From positions 1-22,290 of the IMG/VR virus record IMGVR_UViG_2526164629_000012: a DNA stretch of 22,290 nucleotides; one strand, 5' to 3'. The notes beneath the pieces are model-generated. The model searched no databases, was not told the DNA's origin, and saw nothing but the letters and a program-made list of their open reading frames with translations. Source of the stretch: a virus. Taxonomy: Duplodnaviria > Heunggongvirae > Uroviricota > Caudoviricetes. Every line of letters starts with the position of its first letter. Within the stretch, counting starts at the first letter, position 1. Positions 1-7,954 of the stretch are shown one piece after another. Made by a program: the position numbers and the translations under genes.

Positions 1-171
1 TGATTAATACAGTATTTAATACAGAGCCGTGTTTATTGAGTCGGTATTCAGAGTCTGACCAGAAATTATTAATCTGGTGAAGTTTTTCCTCTGTCATTAC
101 GTCATGGTCGATTTCAATTTCTATTGATGCTTTCCAGTCGTAATCAATGATGATTTTTTGATGTTTGACAT
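1..171 (-). CDS. ea10: Ea10-like early-left protein, N-terminal part; gene runs off the window start; frame is offset by one base across a homopolymer near the start
   Basis: Minus-strand translation of 1-150 is a continuous protein-like frame (IIIDYDWKASIEIEIDHDVMTEEKLHQINNFWSDSEYRLNKHGSVLNTVLI); the only plausible start (ATG, MSNIKK, 169-171) is out of frame by one base across the T6 run at 154-159; position left of ral matches lambda ea10 as recalled. Confidence 0.4.
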
Positions 172-191
172 CTGTTCATATCCTCACAGAT

Positions 192-217
192 AAAAAATCG
201 CCCTCACATTAGAGGGC
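192..217 (-). terminator. Rho-independent terminator candidate downstream of ral on the leftward transcript
   Basis: Inverted repeat GCCCTC(200-205)/GAGGGC(212-217) with a 6-nt loop; on the minus strand it is followed by a run of six T (plus-strand A run 192-197). Confidence 0.45.
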
Positions 218-353
218 AAAGAAGATTTCCAATAATCAGAACAAGTCGGCTCCTGTTTAGTTACGAGCGACATTGCTCCGTGTATTCACTCGTTGGAATG
301 AATACACAGTGCAGTGTTTATTCTGTTGTTTATGCCAAAGATAAAGGCTACCA

Positions 354-554
354 TCAGGCAGCCTTGTTGTTCTGTTTGTCAAGTTCTCTGGCAATCATTG
401 CCGTCGTTCGTATTGCCCATTTATCGACATATTTCCTATCTTCCATTACAGGAAACATTTCTTCAGGCTTAACCATGCATTCCGATTGCAGCTTGCATCC
501 ATTACATCGCTTGAATTGTCCACGCCATTGATTTTTATCAATAGTCGTAGTCAT
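354..554 (-). CDS. ral: Ral restriction-alleviation protein
   Basis: 66-aa ORF MTTTIDKNQWRGQFKRCNGCKLQSECMVKPEEMFPVMED... matches lambda Ral as recalled; correct position and strand relative to sieB and N. Confidence 0.85.
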   Translation of the reverse strand: MTTTIDKNQWRGQFKRCNGCKLQSECMVKPEEMFPVMEDRKYVDKWAIRTTAMIARELDKQNNKAA

Positions 555-624
555 ACGGATAGTCCTGGTATTGTTCCATCACATCCTGAGGATGCTCTTT
601 GAACTCTTCAAATTCTTCTTCCAT
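538..624 (-). CDS. Small acidic ORF (28 aa) overlapping the ral start, lambda orf28-like
   Basis: Minus-strand ATG at 622-624 gives MEEEFEEFKEHPQDVMEQYQDYPYDYDY then stop; below the ORF-track size cutoff; same place as the 28-codon ORF upstream of ral in lambda. Confidence 0.3.
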   Translation of the reverse strand: MEEEFEEFKEHPQDVMEQYQDYPYDYDY

Positions 625-767
625 ATATCACCTTAAATAGTGGATTGCGGTAGTAAAGATTGTGCCTGTCTTTTAACCACATCAGGCTCGGTGGTTCTCA
701 TGTACCCCTACAGCGAGAAATCGGATAAACTCTATTCACCCCTACAGAGAGCAAAAGAGAAACGCCG

Positions 768-1349
768 ATGAACAACTCATGGTGGCAGGAACTAATGCAT
801 TTTTTCCTGCAAGGAATGACACTTAAACAGTTGATTCATATGCTAATCATCCTGATCATATTGATTATTGTTATGCCGGTAAGCGTAAAAGAATGGATAA
901 ACCTGCATAATCCAGAAATCCTTCCTCATTACTGGATGTATTACATCCTGTTGTTTTGCGTTAGCTATGTGCTTAACGGCGTTGTTAATTCCGCTTATCA
1001 CGCTGTGACTGAAAGAATTGAGGTATCCGCTGCTCAGAAGCGCAAATCTAAAGAAGAAAAATATGTGCAAGATTTGTTTGATTCATTAACTCTTGGAGAA
1101 AGAGCGTATTTGGCATTCGCTGTAGCCGCTAATAACCAGCTACAAACGGAAAAGGGAGCTCATGAATCAATTTCATTGCTCAAAAAAGGACTCCTCGTTC
1201 GAAGGCCTCCTGCTGTTGGATATCCTGATACCGACCGTTTCGTTATCCCTGAAAGCTATAGACATGAGTGCTACATTAGGTTTGCCGGGAAGGCAGACAG
1301 CCTTATGGATGAACTTATCGCTCAGGATAAGCATGGCAAAAACAAGTAA
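768..1349 (+). CDS. sieB: Superinfection exclusion protein B
   Basis: 193-aa ORF MNNSWWQELMHFFLQGMTLKQLIHMLIILIILIIVMPVSVKEW... matches lambda SieB as recalled; hydrophobic N-terminal segment; lies between ral and N on the opposite strand. Confidence 0.85.
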   Translation: MNNSWWQELMHFFLQGMTLKQLIHMLIILIILIIVMPVSVKEWINLHNPEILPHYWMYYILLFCVSYVLNGVVNSAYHAVTERIEVSAAQKRKSKEEKYVQDLFDSLTLGERAYLAFAVAANNQLQTEKGAHESISLLKKGLLVRRPPAVGYPDTDRFVIPESYRHECYIRFAGKADSLMDELIAQDKHGKNK

Positions 1350-1365
1350 TTAGCAAATGAATTTA

Positions 1366-1638
1366 TCATCTCGCCGTCAGTTGTTTTGATTTCCGGTAGC
1401 CTGCCGCGTAAAGAGCTACGTTCGGAAGACAAGTTGAACCTTCATATTTTCTGGTCAACGTTGTCAGAGTTATCACTTCTGCTCTCATTGCTGGTTTGCG
1501 CTTGCATTGCAAGACCACTCGTGAAGGGGTTGGCCTGTGTAGCTTGTCGGAGCTGATCGCCTCCTGACTTTGCAGATTTGCGCGACGAGCTCTACGGCGA
1601 GAAGCTGCGGTGCCTTTAAATTCTGTTTTTCTGGACAT
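1366..1638 (-). CDS. N: N-type transcription antiterminator (P22 gp24-like)
   Basis: Internal ATG at 1636-1638 preceded by GGGAGGAA; arginine-rich motif GTAASRRRARRANL near the N-terminus; C-terminus ...VALYAAGYRKSKQLTAR resembles P22 gene 24 protein as recalled; nutL lies upstream. The ORF-track 5' extension to 1710 is rejected. Confidence 0.65.
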   Translation of the reverse strand: MSRKTEFKGTAASRRRARRANLQSQEAISSDKLHRPTPSRVVLQCKRKPAMRAEVITLTTLTRKYEGSTCLPNVALYAAGYRKSKQLTAR

Positions 1639-1736
1639 GGATTCCTCCCGAATAAACTTTGGCGATGCAATCTCGAAGCTCCTCCTGAGACGGTTGCTTC
1701 GGCATTGCATCCCACAGCTTATGTGGTTGGGTGATC

Positions 1737-1784
1737 TGGCTTTTCAGCCACGTAGTCGAGAGTCGACGTTGTTTAAAGAGCCTG
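1737..1784 (-). promoter_or_regulatory. nutL: nutL: boxA plus boxB hairpin
   Basis: Minus strand reads boxA-like GCTCTTTAAACAACG (plus 1768-1782) then boxB hairpin TGGCT-GAAA-AGCCA (plus 1737-1750), upstream of the N start. Confidence 0.5.
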
Positions 1785-1825
1785 CCAGTCTGTTCCATTT
1801 GGCTTCCAGCGTCCTGCTGACGGTT

Positions 1826-1858
1826 AAATAGTACGATATGTACTTTACAAGATCAATA
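1826..1858 (-). promoter_or_regulatory. pL promoter with overlapping OL operator candidate
   Basis: Minus strand: TTGATC (plus 1851-1856), 17-nt spacer TTGTAAAGTACATATCG, TACTAT (plus 1828-1833); the spacer shares the core AAAGTACATAT with the pR spacer; flanking inverted repeat AGTACGATATGTACT. Confidence 0.4.
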
Positions 1859-2045
1859 CAATTTGTTGTAAGTTGGCGTGGTTTTTTATAACGCTTTGTA
1901 TTTAATAGTGTTGTTTTTTAGCGTGGATGTATTGTCTCGGCGATGTAAGGAGAGATCAGAATTGCGTGGTTTAGTGGGTTGCATCTATTTATTTTTCAAT
2001 AAATATAATTGGTTATGTGTTTTTAGGTGGGCGAACGTGAGGCAA

Positions 2046-2069
2046 AGAAAACCCGGCGCTGAGGCCGGG
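2046..2069 (-). terminator. Rho-independent terminator closing the cI-side leftward operon (tImm-like)
   Basis: CCCGGC(2052-2057)/GCCGGG(2064-2069) stem with 6-nt loop; on the minus strand followed by TTTTCTTTGC; directly after the stop of the 250-aa gene at 2075. Confidence 0.55.
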
Positions 2070-2074
2070 TTGTA

Positions 2075-2827
2075 TTATGCTGCAAGTCTCTTAATCCAAG
2101 TCTCTCTTTTGGAGAATGGTAGAACTTGGCTTGATTCATGGAAGAGTAAGGAGAGTTGTTGCATTTGATCACCAATTGCTTCGCTGTCTATAACAACAAA
2201 TCTGTTGTTATACTCCTCACTTGAAGCTTTAAGATCAATTAGTTTCCCAAGCAATGAGTAAGCACTATTCCAGCTTCCTCCGTGTTTCACGCTTGATGTA
2301 AAAACGTATTTAGGTATGTCGGTTTTTATTGTTACAGGGACGGTAATTTGATGTCCACTCAAGCCATATACGTTTTCACGAAGAGAAAGTGCGTCTCTAA
2401 GCTCTGTGTGATATAGATAATCAATAACCATACTTTCAAACTTTTCAGCTTGAACTGGCTGATACCAGTCTAACGACAAAGTTGATGCGAGTATACCAGC
2501 TCTAATTATGTTCGATGTAATCGCACCGACATCCTTTTCTGTTGCCCAAGCAATGATTTCTCCTCGAGCATTGAGTTCTGCGCCTTCTTTAAGCAGTAAT
2601 TGTCGTATCTCATCAAGTCGTTTTTTGGTAAGCGAGATCCCTCTTGCCTCCATATTCATTAAGGCATCGCATCTGTCACTAACTAAATACCTACCATTGA
2701 CTTCACGGATAAAGGCACCGACATGCTCTCCATCATCACAGTAAGTGAATGGACTGATAATTCTCAAGGTCTTGCCTATTGGATGGCATTCGAAACCTAG
2801 TTGTGAGATCACTGTTGAGCACATCAT
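2075..2827 (-). CDS. Hypothetical protein, 250 aa; second gene of a two-gene module in the rexAB position; no family recognised
   Basis: Long ORF in AT-rich DNA; ATG at 2825-2827 overlaps the upstream gene's stop (ATGA), implying translational coupling; terminator immediately downstream. Confidence 0.75.
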   Translation of the reverse strand: MMCSTVISQLGFECHPIGKTLRIISPFTYCDDGEHVGAFIREVNGRYLVSDRCDALMNMEARGISLTKKRLDEIRQLLLKEGAELNARGEIIAWATEKDVGAITSNIIRAGILASTLSLDWYQPVQAEKFESMVIDYLYHTELRDALSLRENVYGLSGHQITVPVTIKTDIPKYVFTSSVKHGGSWNSAYSLLGKLIDLKASSEEYNNRFVVIDSEAIGDQMQQLSLLFHESSQVLPFSKRETWIKRLAA

Positions 2828-3261
2828 ATTCCAAACCCCATTTGCCCCGACTCATCTTCAAGCGGTAAAGGTATTCTCCCAGAGTAAGTTATGTTCAGAT
2901 GTTTACAGAAGTAATTCCAATACCCTACCAGGTCATCTGGGTTTATGTCATCTTCGATTGGAAACGCTATTCTATCACTATAGTATCCAGCTTCTTCATA
3001 GTATACATGGTAGTGAGCACCGTAAATGATATCTTGGTACTTCGGATGATCGACCTTGTAACTATTCGTGTGTTTGTCAAAGTGATAGGTATCTACCGCG
3101 AAAACCCTCTTGTTATGATAGAAAGCAATAATATTTATTTTAGGGTAAGAAATCGGGTCATCAGGTTCTGAATCCTGATCTGGTTTCCATTTCAGTTCAA
3201 ACTTTAGCCCTTGTATAGGTATACAATCCTCATCAAGGGGATGATATGAGCTTGTAGCCAC
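2824..3261 (-). CDS. Hypothetical protein, 145 aa, acidic and Tyr/His-rich; first gene of the two-gene module in the rexAB position
   Basis: ORF in AT-rich DNA on the same strand as cI, 158 nt downstream of it; the only in-frame start is GTG at 3259-3261 with no clear Shine-Dalgarno, so the start is uncertain. Confidence 0.7.
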   Translation of the reverse strand: MATSSYHPLDEDCIPIQGLKFELKWKPDQDSEPDDPISYPKINIIAFYHNKRVFAVDTYHFDKHTNSYKVDHPKYQDIIYGAHYHVYYEEAGYYSDRIAFPIEDDINPDDLVGYWNYFCKHLNITYSGRIPLPLEDESGQMGFGI

Positions 3262-3419
3262 ATATCAGAGCGACTTGGTTTCTGTTTCCATTTAACGCCA
3301 GAAAAGTTAACTATTTTTTTACAATAAAGTACTTTATCAACTTCTACTTGGCTTGGCTGATAATCATCTATTTTTGCCAATGTTTACCGCCCTGTAAATT
3401 GTAGATAAAAGTGGTTTCA

Positions 3420-4079
3420 TCACCCAAACGTCTCTTCAGGCCATTGGCTGGCGATAACTTTCCCCACAACGGAACAACTCTCATTGCATGGGATCATTGG
3501 GTATTGTGGGTTTAGTGGCTGTAGAAACACCTGACCGCTATCCCTGATCAGTTTCTTGAAGGTAAATTCATCACCACCAAGTCTGGCTATGCAGAAATCG
3601 CCGGGCTCAACAGCTTGCTCAGGGTCAACCAGAATTAACATCCCGTCAGGAAAGCTGGGTTTGGAACCTGTTGGTGCGGTCATTGAGTTACCTTCAACCT
3701 CAAGCCAGAATGCAGAGTCACTGGCTTTTTTGGTTGTGCTTACCAATCTCTCCGCATCGCCTTTGGTAAAGGTTCTGAGTTCTGGAGAGAACATCCCAGC
3801 CTGAACATGAGAAAAAACAGGGTACTCATATTGTTTTTTAACTGGGGCCGATGAGTATTCGCCAACAGGTGAAAATGTCCCGTCGTGGTTGAATGATATG
3901 TTATCAATACCAAGGTATTTAAACACCACACCAATATCACTAAGAGATGGATGACGAGATCCGCGCAACCAGTGTCCAATCCCACCCTGCGTCATACCTA
4001 GCTCTTCGGCTAACTTCTCTTGAGTTATGCCGAGCTCTTTCATTCTGGATCTAGCCAGTTCATACCATTTCATTTTCAT
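3420..4079 (-). CDS. cI: CI prophage repressor, LexA-like S24 self-cleaving type
   Basis: C-terminal ~135 aa ([136 protein letters not shown]) matches lambda cI as recalled; N-terminal HTH domain differs from lambda; start placed at the internal ATG (MKMKWYE). Confidence 0.9.
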
Positions 4080-4099
4080 GTCCTTATTATTACGCTTTG

Positions 4100-4170
4100 T
4101 ACTGGAACCATCCATGCACAATGTGTATTTTTACTTGTATTCTTAAAGTACATATTGTATTTTTATTCGT
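4100..4170. promoter_or_regulatory. OR operator region with divergent pR and pRM
   Basis: pR candidate TTGTAT (4135-4140), 17-nt spacer, TATTTT (4158-4163), then GGAGGG and the cro ATG at 4189; spacer carries AAAGTACATAT (4145-4155); repeated TGTATTTTTA motifs at 4124-4133 and 4156-4165. Confidence 0.45.
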
Positions 4171-4188
4171 GTTTACTATGGAGGGCAT

Positions 4189-4404
4189 ATGAGCAACCTA
4201 CGAAAATATCGAGAGTCACTGAATATCTCTCAAACAACACTTGCTAAGGCAGTTGGATGCACACAGGGAGCTATCGGACATTGGGAATCTGGTCGTCGCT
4301 TCCCAGACCTTAAAACATGCCGTGCTCTTGTTGCATGCCTAAACAAGTTAGGCGCAAAAGTCAGTCTTGATGACGTGTTCCCGCCGGAACATAAAGCCGC
4401 TTAA
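4189..4404 (+). CDS. cro: Cro-like HTH repressor
   Basis: 71-aa ORF with HTH (ISQTTLAKAVGCTQGAIGHWESG), strong SD GGAGGG, divergent from cI across the operator region. Confidence 0.8.
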   Translation: MSNLRKYRESLNISQTTLAKAVGCTQGAIGHWESGRRFPDLKTCRALVACLNKLGAKVSLDDVFPPEHKAA

Positions 4405-4414
4405 TAAGCGGATC

Positions 4415-4460
4415 CGCTCTTTGTAACAACGGACATTCGTCCTACGTCGCTGAAAAGCGA
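4415..4460 (+). promoter_or_regulatory. nutR: nutR: boxA plus boxB hairpin
   Basis: boxA-like CGCTCTTTGTAACAACG (4415-4431) then boxB hairpin TCGCT-GAAAA-GCGA (4447-4460); close match to the nutL elements on the other arm. Confidence 0.5.
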
Positions 4461-4545
4461 GTTCCAAGATATCTGACCAACTAAGGCCATATGCGTTTCC
4501 ACGCATACCTTTCAACTAACTATTCACTATTGGAAATCTTAAGAA

Positions 4546-4842
4546 ATGGAAAGAACAAGTTACAGCAAACTATCACAGCGTGACGTTGATCGCGCAGAAA
4601 CAGATTTACTTATCAATCTGTCAGCTATTACCCAGCGCGGTCTGGCAAAGATGATTGGCTGTCATGAATCGAAGATAAGCAGAACGGACTGGAGATTTAT
4701 TGCTTCGGTCTTGTGTGCTTTCGGAATGGCATCAGACATAAGTCCGATTAGCAGGGCTTTTAAGTATGCGCTTGATGGACTCACCAATAAAAAACGCCCG
4801 GCGGCAACCGAGCGTTCTGAACAAATCCAGATGGAATTCTGA
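4546..4842 (+). CDS. cII: CII transcriptional activator
   Basis: 98-aa ORF; C-terminal LTNKKRPAATERSEQIQMEF matches lambda CII as recalled; N-terminal two-thirds divergent. Confidence 0.8.
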   Translation: MERTSYSKLSQRDVDRAETDLLINLSAITQRGLAKMIGCHESKISRTDWRFIASVLCAFGMASDISPISRAFKYALDGLTNKKRPAATERSEQIQMEF

Positions 4843-4874
4843 GGTCATTACTGGATCAATCCACAGGAGTCATT

Positions 4875-5773
4875 ATGACAAATACAGCAAAAATACTCAA
4901 CTTCTGCAGAGGTAACTTTGCCAAACAGGAGCGTAATGTGGCAGATCTCGATGATGGTTACGCCAGACTATCAAATATGCTGCTTGAGGCTTATTCAGGC
5001 GCAGATCTGACCAAGCGACAATTTAAAGTGCTGCTTGCCATTCTGCGTAAAACCTATGGGTGGAATAAACCAATGGACAGAATCACCGATTCTCAACTTA
5101 GCGAGATTACAAAGTTACCTGTCAAACGGTGCAATGAAGCCAAGTTAGAACTCGTCAGAATGAATATTATCAAGCAGCAAGGCGGCATGTTTGGACCAAA
5201 TAAAAACATCTCAGAATGGTGTATCCCTCAAAACGAGGGAAAATCCCCTAAAACGAGGGATAAAACATCCCTCAAATTGGGGGATTGCTATCCCTCAAAA
5301 CAGGGGGACACAAAAGACACTATTACAAAAGAAAAAGAAAAGATTATTCGTCCGAGAATTCTGGCGAATCCTCTGACCAGCCAGAAAACGATCTTTCTGT
5401 GGTTAAACCGGATGCTGCAATTCAGAGCGGCAGCAAGTGGGGGACAGCAGAAGACCTGACCGCCGCAGAGTGGATGTTTGACATGGTGAAGACTATCGCA
5501 CCATCAGCCAGAAAACCGAATTTTGCTGGGTGGGCTAACGATATCCGCCTGATGCGTGAACGTGACGGACGCAACCATCGCGACATGTGTGTACTGTTCC
5601 GCTGGGCATGCCAGGACAACTTCTGGTCCGGTAACGTGCTTAGCCCGGCCAAACTCCGCGACAAGTGGACCCAGCTCGAAATCAACCGTAACAAGCAACA
5701 GGCAGCCGTGACAGCCAGCAAACCAAAACTCGACCTGACAAACACAGACTGGATTTACGGGGTGGATCTATGA
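4875..5773 (+). pseudogene. O: Replication initiator O, frameshifted as read (possible homopolymer sequencing error)
   Basis: N-terminal 4875-5335 (MTNTAKILNF...KDTITKEK) and C-terminal 5340-5773 (RKDYSSENSGESSDQPENDL...WIYGVDL) both match lambda O as recalled but sit in frames offset by one base; the shift is at the A5 run 5332-5336. Confidence 0.85.
5222..5345. repeat. ori-lambda-type origin: four iterons plus AT-rich region, inside O
   Basis: Four tandem ~20-bp inverted-repeat iterons of the form TCCCTCAAAACGAGGGA (5223-5310), followed by an A-rich tract (5311-5345). Confidence 0.85.
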
Positions 5774-6471
5774 AAAACATCGCCGCACAGATGGTTAACT
5801 TTGACCGTGAGCAGATGCGTCGGATCGCCAACAACATGCCGGAACAGTACGACGAAAAGCCTCAGGTACAGCAGGTAGCGCAGATCATCAACGGTGTGTT
5901 CAGCCAGTTACTGGCAACTTTCCCGGCGAGCCTGGCTAACCGTGACCAGAACGAACTGAACGAAATCCGCCGCCAGTGGGTTCTGGCTTTCCGGGAAAAC
6001 GGGATCACCACAATGGAACAGGTTAACGCAGGAATGCGCGTAGCCCGTCGGCAGAATCGACCATTTCTGCCATCACCCGGGCAGTTTGTTGCATGGTGCC
6101 GGGAAGAAGCATCCGTTATCGCCGGACTGCCAAACGTCAGCGAGCTGGTTGATATGGTTTACGAGTATTGCCGGAAGCGAGGCCTGTATCCGGATGCGGA
6201 GTCTTATCCGTGGAAATCAAACGCGCACTACTGGCTGGTTACCAACCTGTATCAGAACATGCGGGCCAATGCGCTTACTGATGCGGAATTACGCCGTAAG
6301 GCTGCCGATGAACTGACCTGTATGACAGCGCGAATTAACCGTGGTGAGACGATACCTGAACCAGTAAAACAACTTCCTGTCATGGGCGGCAGACCTCTAA
6401 ATCGTGTTCAGGCGCTGGCGAAGATCGCAGAAATTAAAGCTAAGTTCGGACTGAAAGGAGCAAGTGTATGA
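5770..6471 (+). CDS. P: Replication protein P (DnaB helicase loader)
   Basis: 233-aa ORF MKNIAAQMVNFDREQMRRIANNMPEQYDEKPQVQQVAQIINGVF... matches lambda P as recalled; start overlaps the O stop. Confidence 0.92.
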   Translation: MKNIAAQMVNFDREQMRRIANNMPEQYDEKPQVQQVAQIINGVFSQLLATFPASLANRDQNELNEIRRQWVLAFRENGITTMEQVNAGMRVARRQNRPFLPSPGQFVAWCREEASVIAGLPNVSELVDMVYEYCRKRGLYPDAESYPWKSNAHYWLVTNLYQNMRANALTDAELRRKAADELTCMTARINRGETIPEPVKQLPVMGGRPLNRVQALAKIAEIKAKFGLKGASV

Positions 6472-6758
6472 CGGGCAAAGAGGCAATTATTCATTACCTG
6501 GGGACGCATAATAGCTTCTGTGCGCCGGACGTTGCCGCGTTAACAGGCGCAACAGTAACCAGCATAAATCAGGCCGCGGCTAAAATGGCACGGGCAGGTC
6601 TTCTGGTTATCGAAGGTAAGGTCTGGCGAACGGTGTATTACCGGTTTGCTACCAAGGAAGAACGGGAAGGAAAGATGAGCACGAACCTGATTTTTAAGGA
6701 GTGTCGCCAGAGTGCCGCGATGAAACGGGTATTGGCGGTATATGGAGTTAAAAGATGA
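6468..6758 (+). CDS. ren: Ren protein
   Basis: 96-aa ORF MTGKEAIIHYLGTHNSFCAPDVAALTGATVTSINQAAAKMARAGLLV... matches lambda Ren as recalled; start overlaps the P stop. Confidence 0.85.
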   Translation: MTGKEAIIHYLGTHNSFCAPDVAALTGATVTSINQAAAKMARAGLLVIEGKVWRTVYYRFATKEEREGKMSTNLIFKECRQSAAMKRVLAVYGVKR

Positions 6759-6783
6759 CCATCTACATCACTGAGCTAATGAC

Positions 6784-6815
6784 AGGCCTGCTGGTAATCG
6801 CAGGCCTTTTTATTT
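6784..6815 (+). terminator. tR2-like rho-independent terminator between ren and ninB
   Basis: 8-bp stem AGGCCTGC(6784-6791)/GCAGGCCT(6800-6807), 8-nt loop, followed by TTTTTATTT. Confidence 0.7.
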
Positions 6816-6831
6816 GGGGGAGAGGGAAGTC

Positions 6832-7272
6832 ATGAAAAAACTAACCTTTGAAATTCGATCTCCAGCACATCAGCAAAACGCTATTCACGCAGTACAGCAA
6901 ATCCTTCCAGACCCAACCAAACCAATCGTAGTAACCATTCAGGAACGCAACCGCAGCTTAGACCAAAACAGGAAGCTATGGGCCTGCTTAGGTGACGTCT
7001 CTCGTCAGGTTGAATGGCATGGTCGCTGGCTGGATGCAGAAAGCTGGAAGTGTGTGTTTACCGCAGCATTAAAGCAGCAGGATGTTGTTCCTAACCTTGC
7101 CGGGAATGGCTTTGTGGTAATAGGCCAGTCAACCAGCAGGATGCGTGTAAGCGAATTTGCGGAGCTATTAGAGCTTATACAGGCATTCGGTACAGAGCGT
7201 GGCGTTAAGTGGTCAGACGAAGCGCGACTGGCTCTCGAATGGAAAGCGCGATGGGGAGACAGGGCGGCATGA
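6832..7272 (+). CDS. ninB: NinB recombination protein
   Basis: [66 protein letters not shown]... matches lambda NinB as recalled; start at the internal ATG 6832. Confidence 0.9.
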
Positions 7273-7451
7273 GACGACAGCGACGAAGTTTCACCGACAT
7301 CATCTGCGAAAACTGCAAATACCTTCCAACGAAACGCTCCAGAAATAAACGCAAGCCAATCCCAAAAGAATCTGACGTAAAAACCTTCAACTACACGGCT
7401 CACCTGTGGGATATCCGGTGGCTAAGTCATTGTGCGAGGAAAACAAGGTGA
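7269..7451 (+). CDS. ninE: NinE
   Basis: [51 protein letters not shown]... matches lambda NinE as recalled; ATGA overlap with the ninB stop. Confidence 0.8.
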
Positions 7452-7603
7452 TTGACCAAAATCGAAGTTACGAACAAGAAAGCGTCGAGCGGGCTTCAGT
7501 GTACACTGAGTGGATTCTATCTAGGCTTAGTGCATACAGAAGATTGCTGGTAAAGGACATGCCAGGCAAAACGATGAGGACTGATATTTATGAAAACATC
7601 TGA
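7448..7603 (+). CDS. ninF: NinF-like small protein, divergent C-terminus next to the cargo insert
   Basis: GTG start overlapping the ninE stop (GTGA), preceded by AGGAAA; 51 aa; only the motif QESVERA resembles lambda NinF from memory. Confidence 0.4.
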
Positions 7604-7954
7604 TTTTTTACTGTTCTTGCATGCGGTACAGGAGGGGCTTTGACCGGGCATTTTATCGTGAATATTTTCACTTGGTATTTCTTTGGTTTTAGAGATTACT
7701 TCACTCGATGGGTTTTAAATAGTTTTCGTCGGTTTATCGGGTGCAAGCCTGATATGAGAATTTATAAAGATGAAAAGAATTGATTGTTAATGTGTTATGA
7801 GGTTTTTTGTTGTGAGTTTGTAATTTGCTTTTATAGAAATACATTAAGTAAATATAATTAAATATTCAAATTGTATATGTATGCGACATGTTGGTGTTTG
7901 GTCGCATACACTGTTGAATATTTGGCTAATGTTATATCAATGTAGAGTTAAAGT

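What the first reader, a model, noticed from the sequence alone, without database searches (positions are those of the whole stretch)
2075..3261. Uncharacterised two-gene operon in the rexAB slot between cI and N: candidate anti-phage exclusion module
Two overlapping minus-strand genes (145 aa then 250 aa, ATGA stop/start overlap) lie directly downstream of cI on the same strand and end at a terminator (2046-2069), the same layout as lambda cI-rexA-rexB-tImm. The DNA is much more AT-rich than the flanking lambda-like genes, indicating acquired cargo. The cI-to-N interval of lambdoid prophages is known to carry variable superinfection-exclusion systems. Neither protein resembles RexA/RexB or any family I can name. 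Gene 1 has only a GTG start with no Shine-Dalgarno, so its start or intactness is uncertain.
Basis: partly seen in the sequence, partly recalled or inferred. Interest (0 to 1): 0.85.

Follow-up and report, generated by a model that had tools for sequence, protein, structure and literature searches.

The report
Broken candidate defence pair beside cI
Where phage lambda keeps its rexAB exclusion genes, this E. coli prophage carries a conserved but untested two-gene candidate anti-phage module, and the first of its two genes is broken by a one-base deletion in this copy.

Summary
The layout is real. On the minus strand, cI (3420-4121) is followed by a two-gene cassette and then by the lambda Timm terminator (2050-2071). 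Homology to lambda resumes exactly at the terminator hairpin.

The 145-aa "gene 1" is not a gene as drawn. It is the 3' part of a 185-aa gene that starts at TTG 3380, 40 nt after cI. One G is missing at 3234, which shifts the frame. Of 239 complete E. coli genomes with the cassette, 237 have the intact gene.

Gene 2 (250 aa) is intact. It is a Pfam DUF1828 protein whose model resembles YbjN/secretion-chaperone folds and restriction-endonuclease folds. The canonical nuclease motif is not conserved.

The two genes are adjacent in all 94 loci examined, with overlapping stop and start codons. In 85 of them a cI-like repressor lies just upstream; 33 repressor types are represented.

Both proteins hit the two components of PADLOC's untested candidate PDC-M24. 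No experimental study was found.

Verdict: a plausible, catalogued but unvalidated prophage defence candidate of unknown mechanism, probably inactive in this window.

The parts
3420..4121 (-). cI-type prophage repressor (HTH plus Peptidase_S24). It is the upstream gene of the presumed operon and is context, not cargo.
   Evidence: Pfam Peptidase_S24 E=1.3e-28 and HTH_3 E=2e-10. RefSeq annotates 3420-4115 as a LexA family protein.
3204..3380 (-). 5' fragment of gene A. It starts at TTG 3380 and encodes 48 native codons (MAKIDDYQPSQVEVD...AHIIPL), then 10 out-of-frame codons and a stop.
   Evidence: ORF list. Alignment with ev207, Nissle 1917 and 13E0767. Translation of the intact gene. The N-terminus is conserved across genera. 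The family HMM matches this ORF at profile positions 2-51.
3234..3234 (-). Frameshift site: one G of the GG in CCCCTTGGAT is missing.
   Evidence: Alignment A1 and coordinates. Only 2 of 239 complete E. coli genomes share this allele.
2824..3261 (-). Only codons from about 3233 downward (residues 50-185 of the intact protein) are in the native frame.
   Evidence: HMM positions 47-178 match this ORF. PHROG 2017 E=3.9e-53. Weak hits to DUF6978 (E=2e-4) and PDC-M24A (E=2.8e-4).
2075..2827 (-). Gene B, intact, 250 aa. It has a DUF1828 N-terminal domain and, by inference, a restriction-endonuclease-like C-terminal domain.
2040..2071 (-). Timm-type intrinsic terminator (hairpin 2050-2071 plus T tract). 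It is the right-hand boundary of the cassette, and homology to lambda starts here.
   Evidence: Terminator scan. 110/122 identities to lambda beginning at AACCCGGCC. Annotated as Timm in HK542 and mEp332.
2072..3419 (-). The exchangeable cassette as a whole, between the cI stop codon and Timm.
   Evidence: Phages with lambda-like cI and Timm match only the two flanks. Lambda, HK542 and mEp332 carry other genes in the same interval.

Best explanation
This is a mobile two-gene accessory cassette of temperate phages, a divergent relative of PADLOC candidate PDC-M24. It occupies the rexAB slot and is most likely co-transcribed with cI from the repressor promoter in lysogens.

The likeliest role is defence of the lysogen against other phages by two soluble proteins made together through translational coupling.
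- A is a 185-aa beta-rich protein with an invariant Asp/His cluster (D97, H104, N106, H123, H125), which I read as a metal site.
- B is a 250-aa protein. I read its YbjN/secretion-chaperone-like DUF1828 domain as a binding or sensing part, fused to a restriction-endonuclease-fold domain.

Proposed mechanism: an A-B complex stays silent until an infecting phage is sensed, then attacks nucleic acid or another essential target, in the manner of abortive infection or a toxin-antitoxin system.

In this window a 1-bp deletion truncates A and uncouples B from its translation, so the module is probably inactive here.

Shown: the anatomy, the frameshift, strict pairing of A and B, linkage to repressors, purifying selection, the PDC-M24 hits and the fold resemblances.
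Inferred: co-transcription with cI, complex formation, the metal site, any nuclease activity and the anti-phage role itself.
For: Slot:
- The flanks are homologous to lambda-type cI and Timm, and the interior is replaced.
- The same slot holds lambda rexAB and Salmonella BTP1 bstA, which is transcribed from the cI promoter.
- Only 40 nt and no predicted terminator separate cI from A.

Pairing:
- A and B are adjacent in 94 of 94 loci, including relatives at only 22-28% identity.
- Stop and start codons overlap in all 56 distinct sequences of the pair. A starts with GTG or TTG in all Enterobacterales-type copies.
- dN is 0.1-0.7, while dS is above 2 or too saturated to compute.

Linkage to repressors:
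- 85 of 94 loci have a cI-like repressor within 400 nt upstream on the same strand.
- These fall into 33 clusters at 70% identity.

Defence association:
- All 11 B family members hit PDC-M24B (best E=1.8e-15, full length).
- A members hit PDC-M24A weakly: three models matched by 4, 3 and 1 of 18 members, best E=2.4e-4.
- PDC-M24 was nominated by embedding in BREX, DISARM or RM loci.

Folds:
- It also matches many PD-(D/E)xK nucleases: Can2 10.0, NgoMIV 8.8, PspGI 8.8, AF1548 8.4.
- A has conserved D97, H104, N106, H123 and H125 across remote homologs.
Against: - No experiment exists for this family in the searched literature.
- PDC-M24 itself is untested.
- The A hits to PDC-M24A and DUF6978 are weak, cover only about 60 C-terminal residues and fall below Pfam's cut-off.
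- B lacks a conserved canonical PD-(D/E)xK triad. K173 and D214 are lost in remote homologs, and only D198 and H159 persist.
- A has no structural relative that would suggest a chemistry.
- Promoter-like sites are no more frequent than chance, so transcription is unproven.
- The remote relatives' neighbours are mobile-element genes, not defence islands.
Confidence: 0.5

Rival explanations
1. The pair is a toxin-antitoxin type addiction module that stabilises the prophage rather than excluding other phages. A would be a poorly translated toxin (GTG/TTG start) and B its translationally coupled neutraliser.
For: - The architecture is a compact two-gene operon with overlapping stop and start, and a weak start codon on the first gene.
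- Loss of A with B intact is tolerated in at least two sequenced strains, as expected if A is the toxin.
Against: - No hit to any known toxin or antitoxin family in Pfam, NCBIfam or PADLOC.
- No HTH or DNA-binding antitoxin domain is present.
- The near-exclusive placement after prophage repressors and the PDC-M24 embedding in BREX, DISARM or RM loci fit defence cargo better.
- Many TA systems are themselves defence systems, so this rival overlaps the main explanation.
Confidence: 0.15
2. The pair serves the phage's own lysogeny or induction control, or is a host-fitness moron unrelated to phages. For example, it could modulate repressor cleavage, SOS response or host physiology.
For: - Tight linkage to 33 different repressor types could reflect a functional tie to repressor biology rather than just a well-expressed slot.
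- YbjN-family proteins such as AmyR, which resemble the DUF1828 domain, are regulators.
- Another prophage function, the sRNA svsR, has been mapped to the 3' end of cI in a related icd-integrated prophage.
Against: - The cassette is dispensable. Phages with homologous cI and Timm carry other genes in the slot.
- Some remote homologs lie without an adjacent repressor.
- The PDC-M24 relatives sit inside BREX, DISARM or RM loci, not in prophage control regions.
Confidence: 0.2
3. In this window the locus is simply a decaying remnant with no current function, whatever the intact family does.
For: - The frameshift at 3234 removes the conserved N-terminal 49 residues of A, including invariant K22 and W31, from the rest of the protein.
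- The 145-aa ORF has only a GTG start and no Shine-Dalgarno sequence.
- Translational coupling to B is lost, because the 5' ORF stops at 3204, about 380 nt before B's start.
Against: - B is 100% intact here and differs by one residue from the Nissle and ev207 protein.
- The lesion is a single recent event, seen in 2 of 239 genomes.
- B might act alone or be expressed independently.
Confidence: 0.7

Closest known systems
PADLOC phage defence candidate PDC-M24 (two-gene cassette FAM_00129>>FAM_00065; Payne et al. 2024, bioRxiv 10.1101/2024.01.29.577857)
   Same: - Both are two adjacent same-strand genes in the same order.
- B matches PDC-M24B over its full length (E=6.1e-10; family best 1.8e-15).
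- A matches PDC-M24A models.
- Both systems are untested.
   Different: - The A match is weak (E about 2e-4 to 7e-3) and limited to about 60 C-terminal residues.
- This branch lives downstream of prophage repressors, whereas PDC-M24 was found embedded in BREX, DISARM or type I RM loci.
- PADLOC's own system-calling thresholds were not run.
Lambda RexAB abortive-infection system
   Same: - Same slot: directly after cI, same strand, ending at the homologous Timm terminator.
- Both are two genes and are presumed to be expressed in the lysogen.
   Different: - No sequence similarity by BLASTP or by family HMMs at E<=10.
- RexB is a polytopic membrane protein (51 hydropathy windows above 1.6), whereas A and B have none.
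- A membrane-depolarisation mechanism is therefore not expected.
BstA of Salmonella prophage BTP1 (Owen et al. 2021, PMC8585504)
   Same: It is a prophage defence gene lying downstream of the repressor gene, sharing its promoter, and found behind diverse repressors.
   Different: - BstA is a single protein with a cognate aba self-immunity element.
- The only PADLOC-DB models A and B hit are the PDC-M24 ones.
- No self-immunity element was looked for here.
PD-(D/E)xK (restriction-endonuclease-fold) nucleases, including the CRISPR ancillary nucleases Can2 and Card1
   Different: - Sequence identity is 6-13%.
- The canonical D...(D/E)xK residues are not conserved across the family.
- No CARF domain or cyclic-nucleotide partner is present.
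DS-6B, the DUF3037 + DUF1829 partner of a HipA-like kinase (validated system DS-6 of DefensePredictor, bioRxiv 10.1101/2025.01.08.631726)
   Same: - By my recollection of Pfam architectures, DUF1829 is the domain that commonly follows DUF1828.
- One of 11 B-family members hits DUF1829 (E=0.049).
- DS-6 shows that a DUF1829 protein can be part of a working defence system.
   Different: - The DUF1829 hit is marginal and absent for the window protein.
- The partner genes are unrelated: a kinase there, the A protein here.

Membership tests
PADLOC candidate PDC-M24 | Component B matches the PDC-M24B HMM | tested here: met
   Window B: E=6.1e-10, residues 2-248 against profile 4-253 of 256. All 11 family members match, best E=1.8e-15.
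PADLOC candidate PDC-M24 | Component A matches the PDC-M24A HMM | tested here: inconclusive
   E=2.8e-4 to 7.7e-4 for the E. coli protein, covering only residues 104-163 of 185. Three PDC-M24A models are matched by 4, 3 and 1 of 18 members. The Pfam DUF6978 hit of 22 bits is below the 29.6-bit cut-off.
PADLOC candidate PDC-M24 | A and B adjacent on one strand, in the order A then B | tested here: met
   Adjacent in 94 of 94 loci, with overlapping stop and start codons. The cassette is listed as FAM_00129>>FAM_00065.
PADLOC candidate PDC-M24 | Demonstrated anti-phage activity | not testable with these tools
   The authors list all 145 PDC systems as untested. No later paper was found.
Lambda RexAB | Sequence homology to RexA and RexB | tested here: not met
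   BLASTP best E=0.99. The family HMMs find no hit at E<=10.
Lambda RexAB | A multi-pass membrane component (RexB-like ion channel) | tested here: not met
   Maximum 19-residue Kyte-Doolittle hydropathy is 0.45 for A and 1.19 for B, against 2.39 for RexB. A and B have no window above 1.6.
Lambda RexAB | Position between cI and Timm on the cI strand | tested here: met
PD-(D/E)xK nuclease superfamily (protein B) | Restriction-endonuclease-like alpha/beta core fold | tested here: met
PD-(D/E)xK nuclease superfamily (protein B) | Conserved catalytic D...(D/E)xK residues | tested here: not met
   Residues invariant across remote homologs in the C-terminal half are W121, F130, V134, G155, S157, G158, P164, T177, G194 and D198, with H159 nearly so. 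K173 and D214 are not conserved.
Pfam DUF1828 (protein B) | Score above Pfam's gathering threshold | tested here: met
   33.5 bits against a 22-bit cut-off, residues 26-110. All 11 family members match.
Type II toxin-antitoxin systems | Homology to a known toxin or antitoxin family, and toxicity of one partner neutralised by the other | tested here: inconclusive
   No hit to a toxin or antitoxin family in Pfam, NCBIfam or PADLOC. Toxicity cannot be tested here. The natural A-frameshift allele with intact B shows only that loss of A is tolerated.

The most novel reading that the evidence does not exclude
The intact A-B pair is a true anti-phage system with a mechanism not yet described. Its catalytic or signalling partner (A) would have a fold with no solved relative and a conserved Asp/His metal site. 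It would work with a DUF1828 protein that couples a chaperone-like sensing domain to a degenerate restriction-endonuclease fold, hard-wired to prophage repressor expression. This would give DUF1828 and DUF6978 their first function. It might also account for part of the unexplained resistance of E. coli Nissle 1917 to lambdoid phages.
Probability: 0.3. Interest if true: 0.65.

Novelty: new member of a known kind. Interest (0 to 1): 0.45.

Why it matters
If the intact pair defends against phages, it would add a validated system to the cI-N slot alongside RexAB, BstA and (from memory) 933W Stk. It would also give a first function to two domains of unknown function, DUF1828 and DUF6978.

The cassette is common: about 4% of complete E. 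coli genomes, including Shiga-toxin phages and the probiotic strain Nissle 1917. It also occurs in Salmonella, Klebsiella, Yersinia, Providencia, Xenorhabdus and Aeromonas.

The window supplies a natural loss-of-function allele of gene A. That is a ready-made control for such experiments.

For annotation, the 145-aa "hypothetical protein" called in RefSeq for strain 13E0767 is a frameshift fragment.

Tried and rejected
- RexAB homology is rejected: no similarity and no membrane segments.
- The HK542 and mEp332 genes in the same slot are unrelated to A and B (hhalign probability 0.2% or less). They hit nothing in PADLOC.
- Sequence searches against solved structures gave only noise for both families (E 0.29 and 0.54).
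- NCBIfam gave nothing.
- Foldseek against viral structure predictions gave no hit at E<=0.001 for A.
- The afdb50 fold library was unavailable.
- A genome scan with the remote alignment A4 failed for lack of conserved stretches. The closer alignment A2 gave five loci.
- A programmed frameshift in gene A is rejected, because 237 of 239 genomes have one continuous frame.
- Internal promoters: the promoter-like sites found (5) do not exceed the chance expectation (5.9).
- Literature searches for DUF1828, DUF6978, PDC-M24 and the RefSeq protein accessions found no functional study. The DefensePredictor preprint has no supplement held.
- The Nissle 1917 study (PMC5987069) tested only the neighbouring "pr" gene. 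Its supplement merely lists two hypothetical genes between sieB and cI.

Full report
**1. What is in the sequence**

The left third of the window is the immunity region of a lambdoid E. coli prophage. On the minus strand lie cI (3420-4121; Peptidase_S24 E=1.3e-28 plus HTH_3), two ORFs at 2824-3261 (145 aa, GTG) and 2075-2827 (250 aa, ATG), and N (1366-1710; N_peptide E=2.3e-32). Further left are sieB on the plus strand (768-1349) and ral (354-554). On the plus strand to the right lie a cro-like gene, cII, O, P and ren.

The two ORFs overlap as ATGA. An intrinsic terminator lies 4 nt after the stop of the 250-aa gene: stem 2050-2071, 8 pairs of which 6 are G-C, followed by a T tract.

The window is 99.9% identical over 1-7496 to E. 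coli 13E0767, and over 316-7496 to OkiPb01716. It is mosaic beyond that.

**2. It really is the rexAB slot**

Homology to lambda starts exactly at the terminator hairpin (AACCCGGCCTCAGCGCCGGGTTTTCTTTGCC) and runs for 110/122 identities. In lambda this sequence lies at the end of rexB. The equivalent element is annotated as Timm in HK542 and mEp332.

Phages with lambda-type cI and Timm match only the two flanks of the query. Between the flanks:
- Lambda has rexA and rexB.
- HK542 has two genes (144 and 206 aa) with no detectable similarity to the window pair (hhalign probability 0.2% or less).
- mEp332 has a single 345-aa gene.

The cassette is therefore window 2072-3419. The cI-N interval is described in the literature as a mosaic site for accessory and abortive-infection genes. 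BTP1 bstA is transcribed there from the cI promoter (PMC8585504, PMC7067206).

The cassette has 39.4% GC against 46.2% for cI and 50.1% for N, but sieB and ral have about 41%.

**3. Gene 1 is frameshifted here**

In phage ev207, in Nissle 1917 and in most genomes, the gene after cI is 558 nt (185 aa). It starts at a TTG 40 nt after the cI stop. The window lacks one G (TTGGAT to TTGAT) at 3234.

The native reading frame therefore runs from 3380, shifts at 3234 and stops at 3204. The 145-aa ORF is the remainder, and its first eight codons are out of frame.

The full-length N-terminus (MAKxDDYLPSQxEVD...) is conserved at 59-71% overall identity in Klebsiella, Salmonella, Yersinia, Buttiauxella and Xenorhabdus proteins of 183-187 aa. 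The long form is thus the real gene.

An 81-nt probe across the site finds 239 complete E. coli genomes. Only two, 13E0767 and OkiPb01716, carry the deleted allele. RefSeq either calls the 145-aa fragment (13E0767) or leaves the gene out (OkiPb01716).

The lost N-terminal 49 residues include K22 and W31, which are invariant in remote homologs. They form confidently modelled secondary structure. The 5' ORF stops about 380 nt before gene B's start, so translational coupling to B is also lost. That last point is an inference.

**4. A conserved, mobile pair**

I call the genes A (185 aa) and B (250 aa).

*Distribution and pairing.* Eighty IMG/VR prophage contigs, five genomes of other genera and four metagenomic contigs with remote relatives were collected. 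The remote relatives share 22-28% identity in A.
- Family HMMs find A immediately upstream of B in 94 of 94 sequences. A is in one frame in all but the window and 13E0767.
- In all 56 distinct sequences of the pair, the stop of A overlaps the start of B. Most do so as ATGA, and the others by 1-13 nt.
- A begins with GTG or TTG in every Enterobacterales-type copy.
- dN is 0.1-0.7 while dS is above 2 or saturated, so both genes are under purifying selection.

*Linkage to repressors.* In 85 of 94 loci a cI-like repressor ORF ends within 400 nt upstream on the same strand. These repressors fall into 33 clusters at 70% identity. Nearly identical E. coli cassettes sit behind different repressors (L040, L041). 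A remote pair also follows a Peptidase_S24 gene. The cassette therefore moves among immunity regions as a unit.

*Family size.* A's family is very small. A profile search of 1.84 billion representative proteins gave 20 hits.

**5. What the proteins look like**

*Protein B.*
- It is a bona fide DUF1828 protein and belongs to PHROG 1960, of unknown function.
- Its AF2 model (pLDDT 80, pTM 0.51) has two halves.
- From the order of secondary structure I assign the first class to residues about 10-118 and the second to about 127-250. The tool gave no aligned ranges, so this assignment is an inference.
- The canonical nuclease residues are not conserved. Across remote homologs only D198 (and H159, nearly) persist in the C-terminal half. 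The N-terminal half keeps D32-G33-E34, D51, R70 and G89-E90.
- One family member hits DUF1829 marginally (E=0.049).

*Protein A.*
- The intact-form model has pLDDT 82 and pTM 0.81 and is beta-rich with one long helix.
- K22, W31, R92, D97, N106, G121, H123, H125, F158 and P173 are invariant across remote homologs, and H104 nearly so. I read the Asp/His cluster as a possible metal site, which is an inference.

Neither protein has a membrane segment or any similarity to RexA or RexB.

**6. Relation to known systems**

In PADLOC-DB the only hits are to the two components of one candidate, PDC-M24.
- B hits at E=6.1e-10 over its full length. All 11 family members hit, with a best E of 1.8e-15.
- A hits at E about 2e-4 to 7e-3, over its C-terminal 60 residues only. 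Three PDC-M24A models are matched, by 4, 3 and 1 of 18 members.

Pfam DUF6978 is hit by 6 of 18 A members, all below the cut-off.

PDC-M24 is one of 145 candidates nominated because their genes lie embedded in BREX, DISARM or type I RM loci. The authors state that these are untested.

I found no paper that assigns a function to DUF1828, DUF6978 or these proteins.

Nissle 1917 carries the intact pair next to cI, in its icd-adjacent prophage remnant. The study of that strain's resistance to lambdoid phages cloned only a neighbouring "pr" gene. It concluded that other factors must exist.

**7. Interpretation**

The best reading, with confidence about 0.5, is a prophage-borne, cI-linked two-protein defence or abortive-infection module. 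It is a divergent relative of PDC-M24, and its chemistry is unknown.

Nuclease action is suggested only by B's fold and is not supported by its motifs. A may be the catalytic partner.

The rivals are a toxin-antitoxin addiction module, which overlaps the main reading, and a lysogeny-control or host-fitness moron.

For this particular window, the module is most likely inactive because A is frameshifted (about 0.7).

**8. Verdict**

- It is a new member of a known kind. Interest is moderate.

Noticed in passing
window 7955-9727 (-), with the surrounding stretch from about 7500 to 10790: A 590-aa minus-strand ORF with no Pfam family lies in a very AT-rich stretch (29% GC at 7651-7950). It is inserted in the nin region between ninE/ninF and ninG, opposite to the flanking genes. 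Related E. coli genomes annotate 'hypothetical protein | HNH endonuclease' here. It could be a second moron or defence candidate.
   Followed up: partly
window 2824-3261 (-); NZ_CP020107.1 locus tag EC767_RS18200: RefSeq annotates the 145-aa frameshift fragment as an ordinary hypothetical protein (WP_244427978.1) in strain 13E0767. In OkiPb01716 the gene is left out altogether. Neither record flags a pseudogene.
   Followed up: yes
window 3420-3500 (3' end of cI): A 2026 paper (PMC12803456) places a 77-nt sRNA, svsR, at the 3' end of cI of NC-SV, a lambdoid prophage integrated at icd. It credits svsR with protection against virulent phages. The Nissle 1917 relative of this window's prophage also lies next to icd. 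I did not test whether this cI carries svsR or whether NC-SV carries the A-B pair.
   Followed up: no
window 768-1349 (+) and 354-554 (-): Two further accessory genes lie just left of N: sieB (superinfection exclusion B, Pfam E=2.5e-22) and ral (restriction alleviation, E=4.2e-45). The cassette therefore sits in a stretch already dense in phage-interference genes.
   Followed up: partly
window 7497-22290 and 1-315: The window is mosaic relative to the two genomes that share its frameshift allele. Identity is 99.9% up to 7496, followed by rearranged or replaced segments. In OkiPb01716 an IS66-family tnpA abuts ral where the window has different sequence.
   Followed up: partly
L001-L010 and L016-L095, start of gene A: Gene A uses a non-ATG start (GTG or TTG) in every Enterobacterales-type copy. 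GTG copies from other genera carry a GGAT-containing motif (ATGGAT or ACGGAT) 12-14 nt upstream. A conserved weak start may set a low A:B ratio.
   Followed up: partly
L004 1472-2523 (HK542) and L005 1457-2494 (mEp332): Other occupants of the same cI-Timm slot also have no PADLOC hit and appear uncharacterised. These are HK542c105/c104 (144 and 206 aa) and mEp33204 (345 aa).
   Followed up: partly
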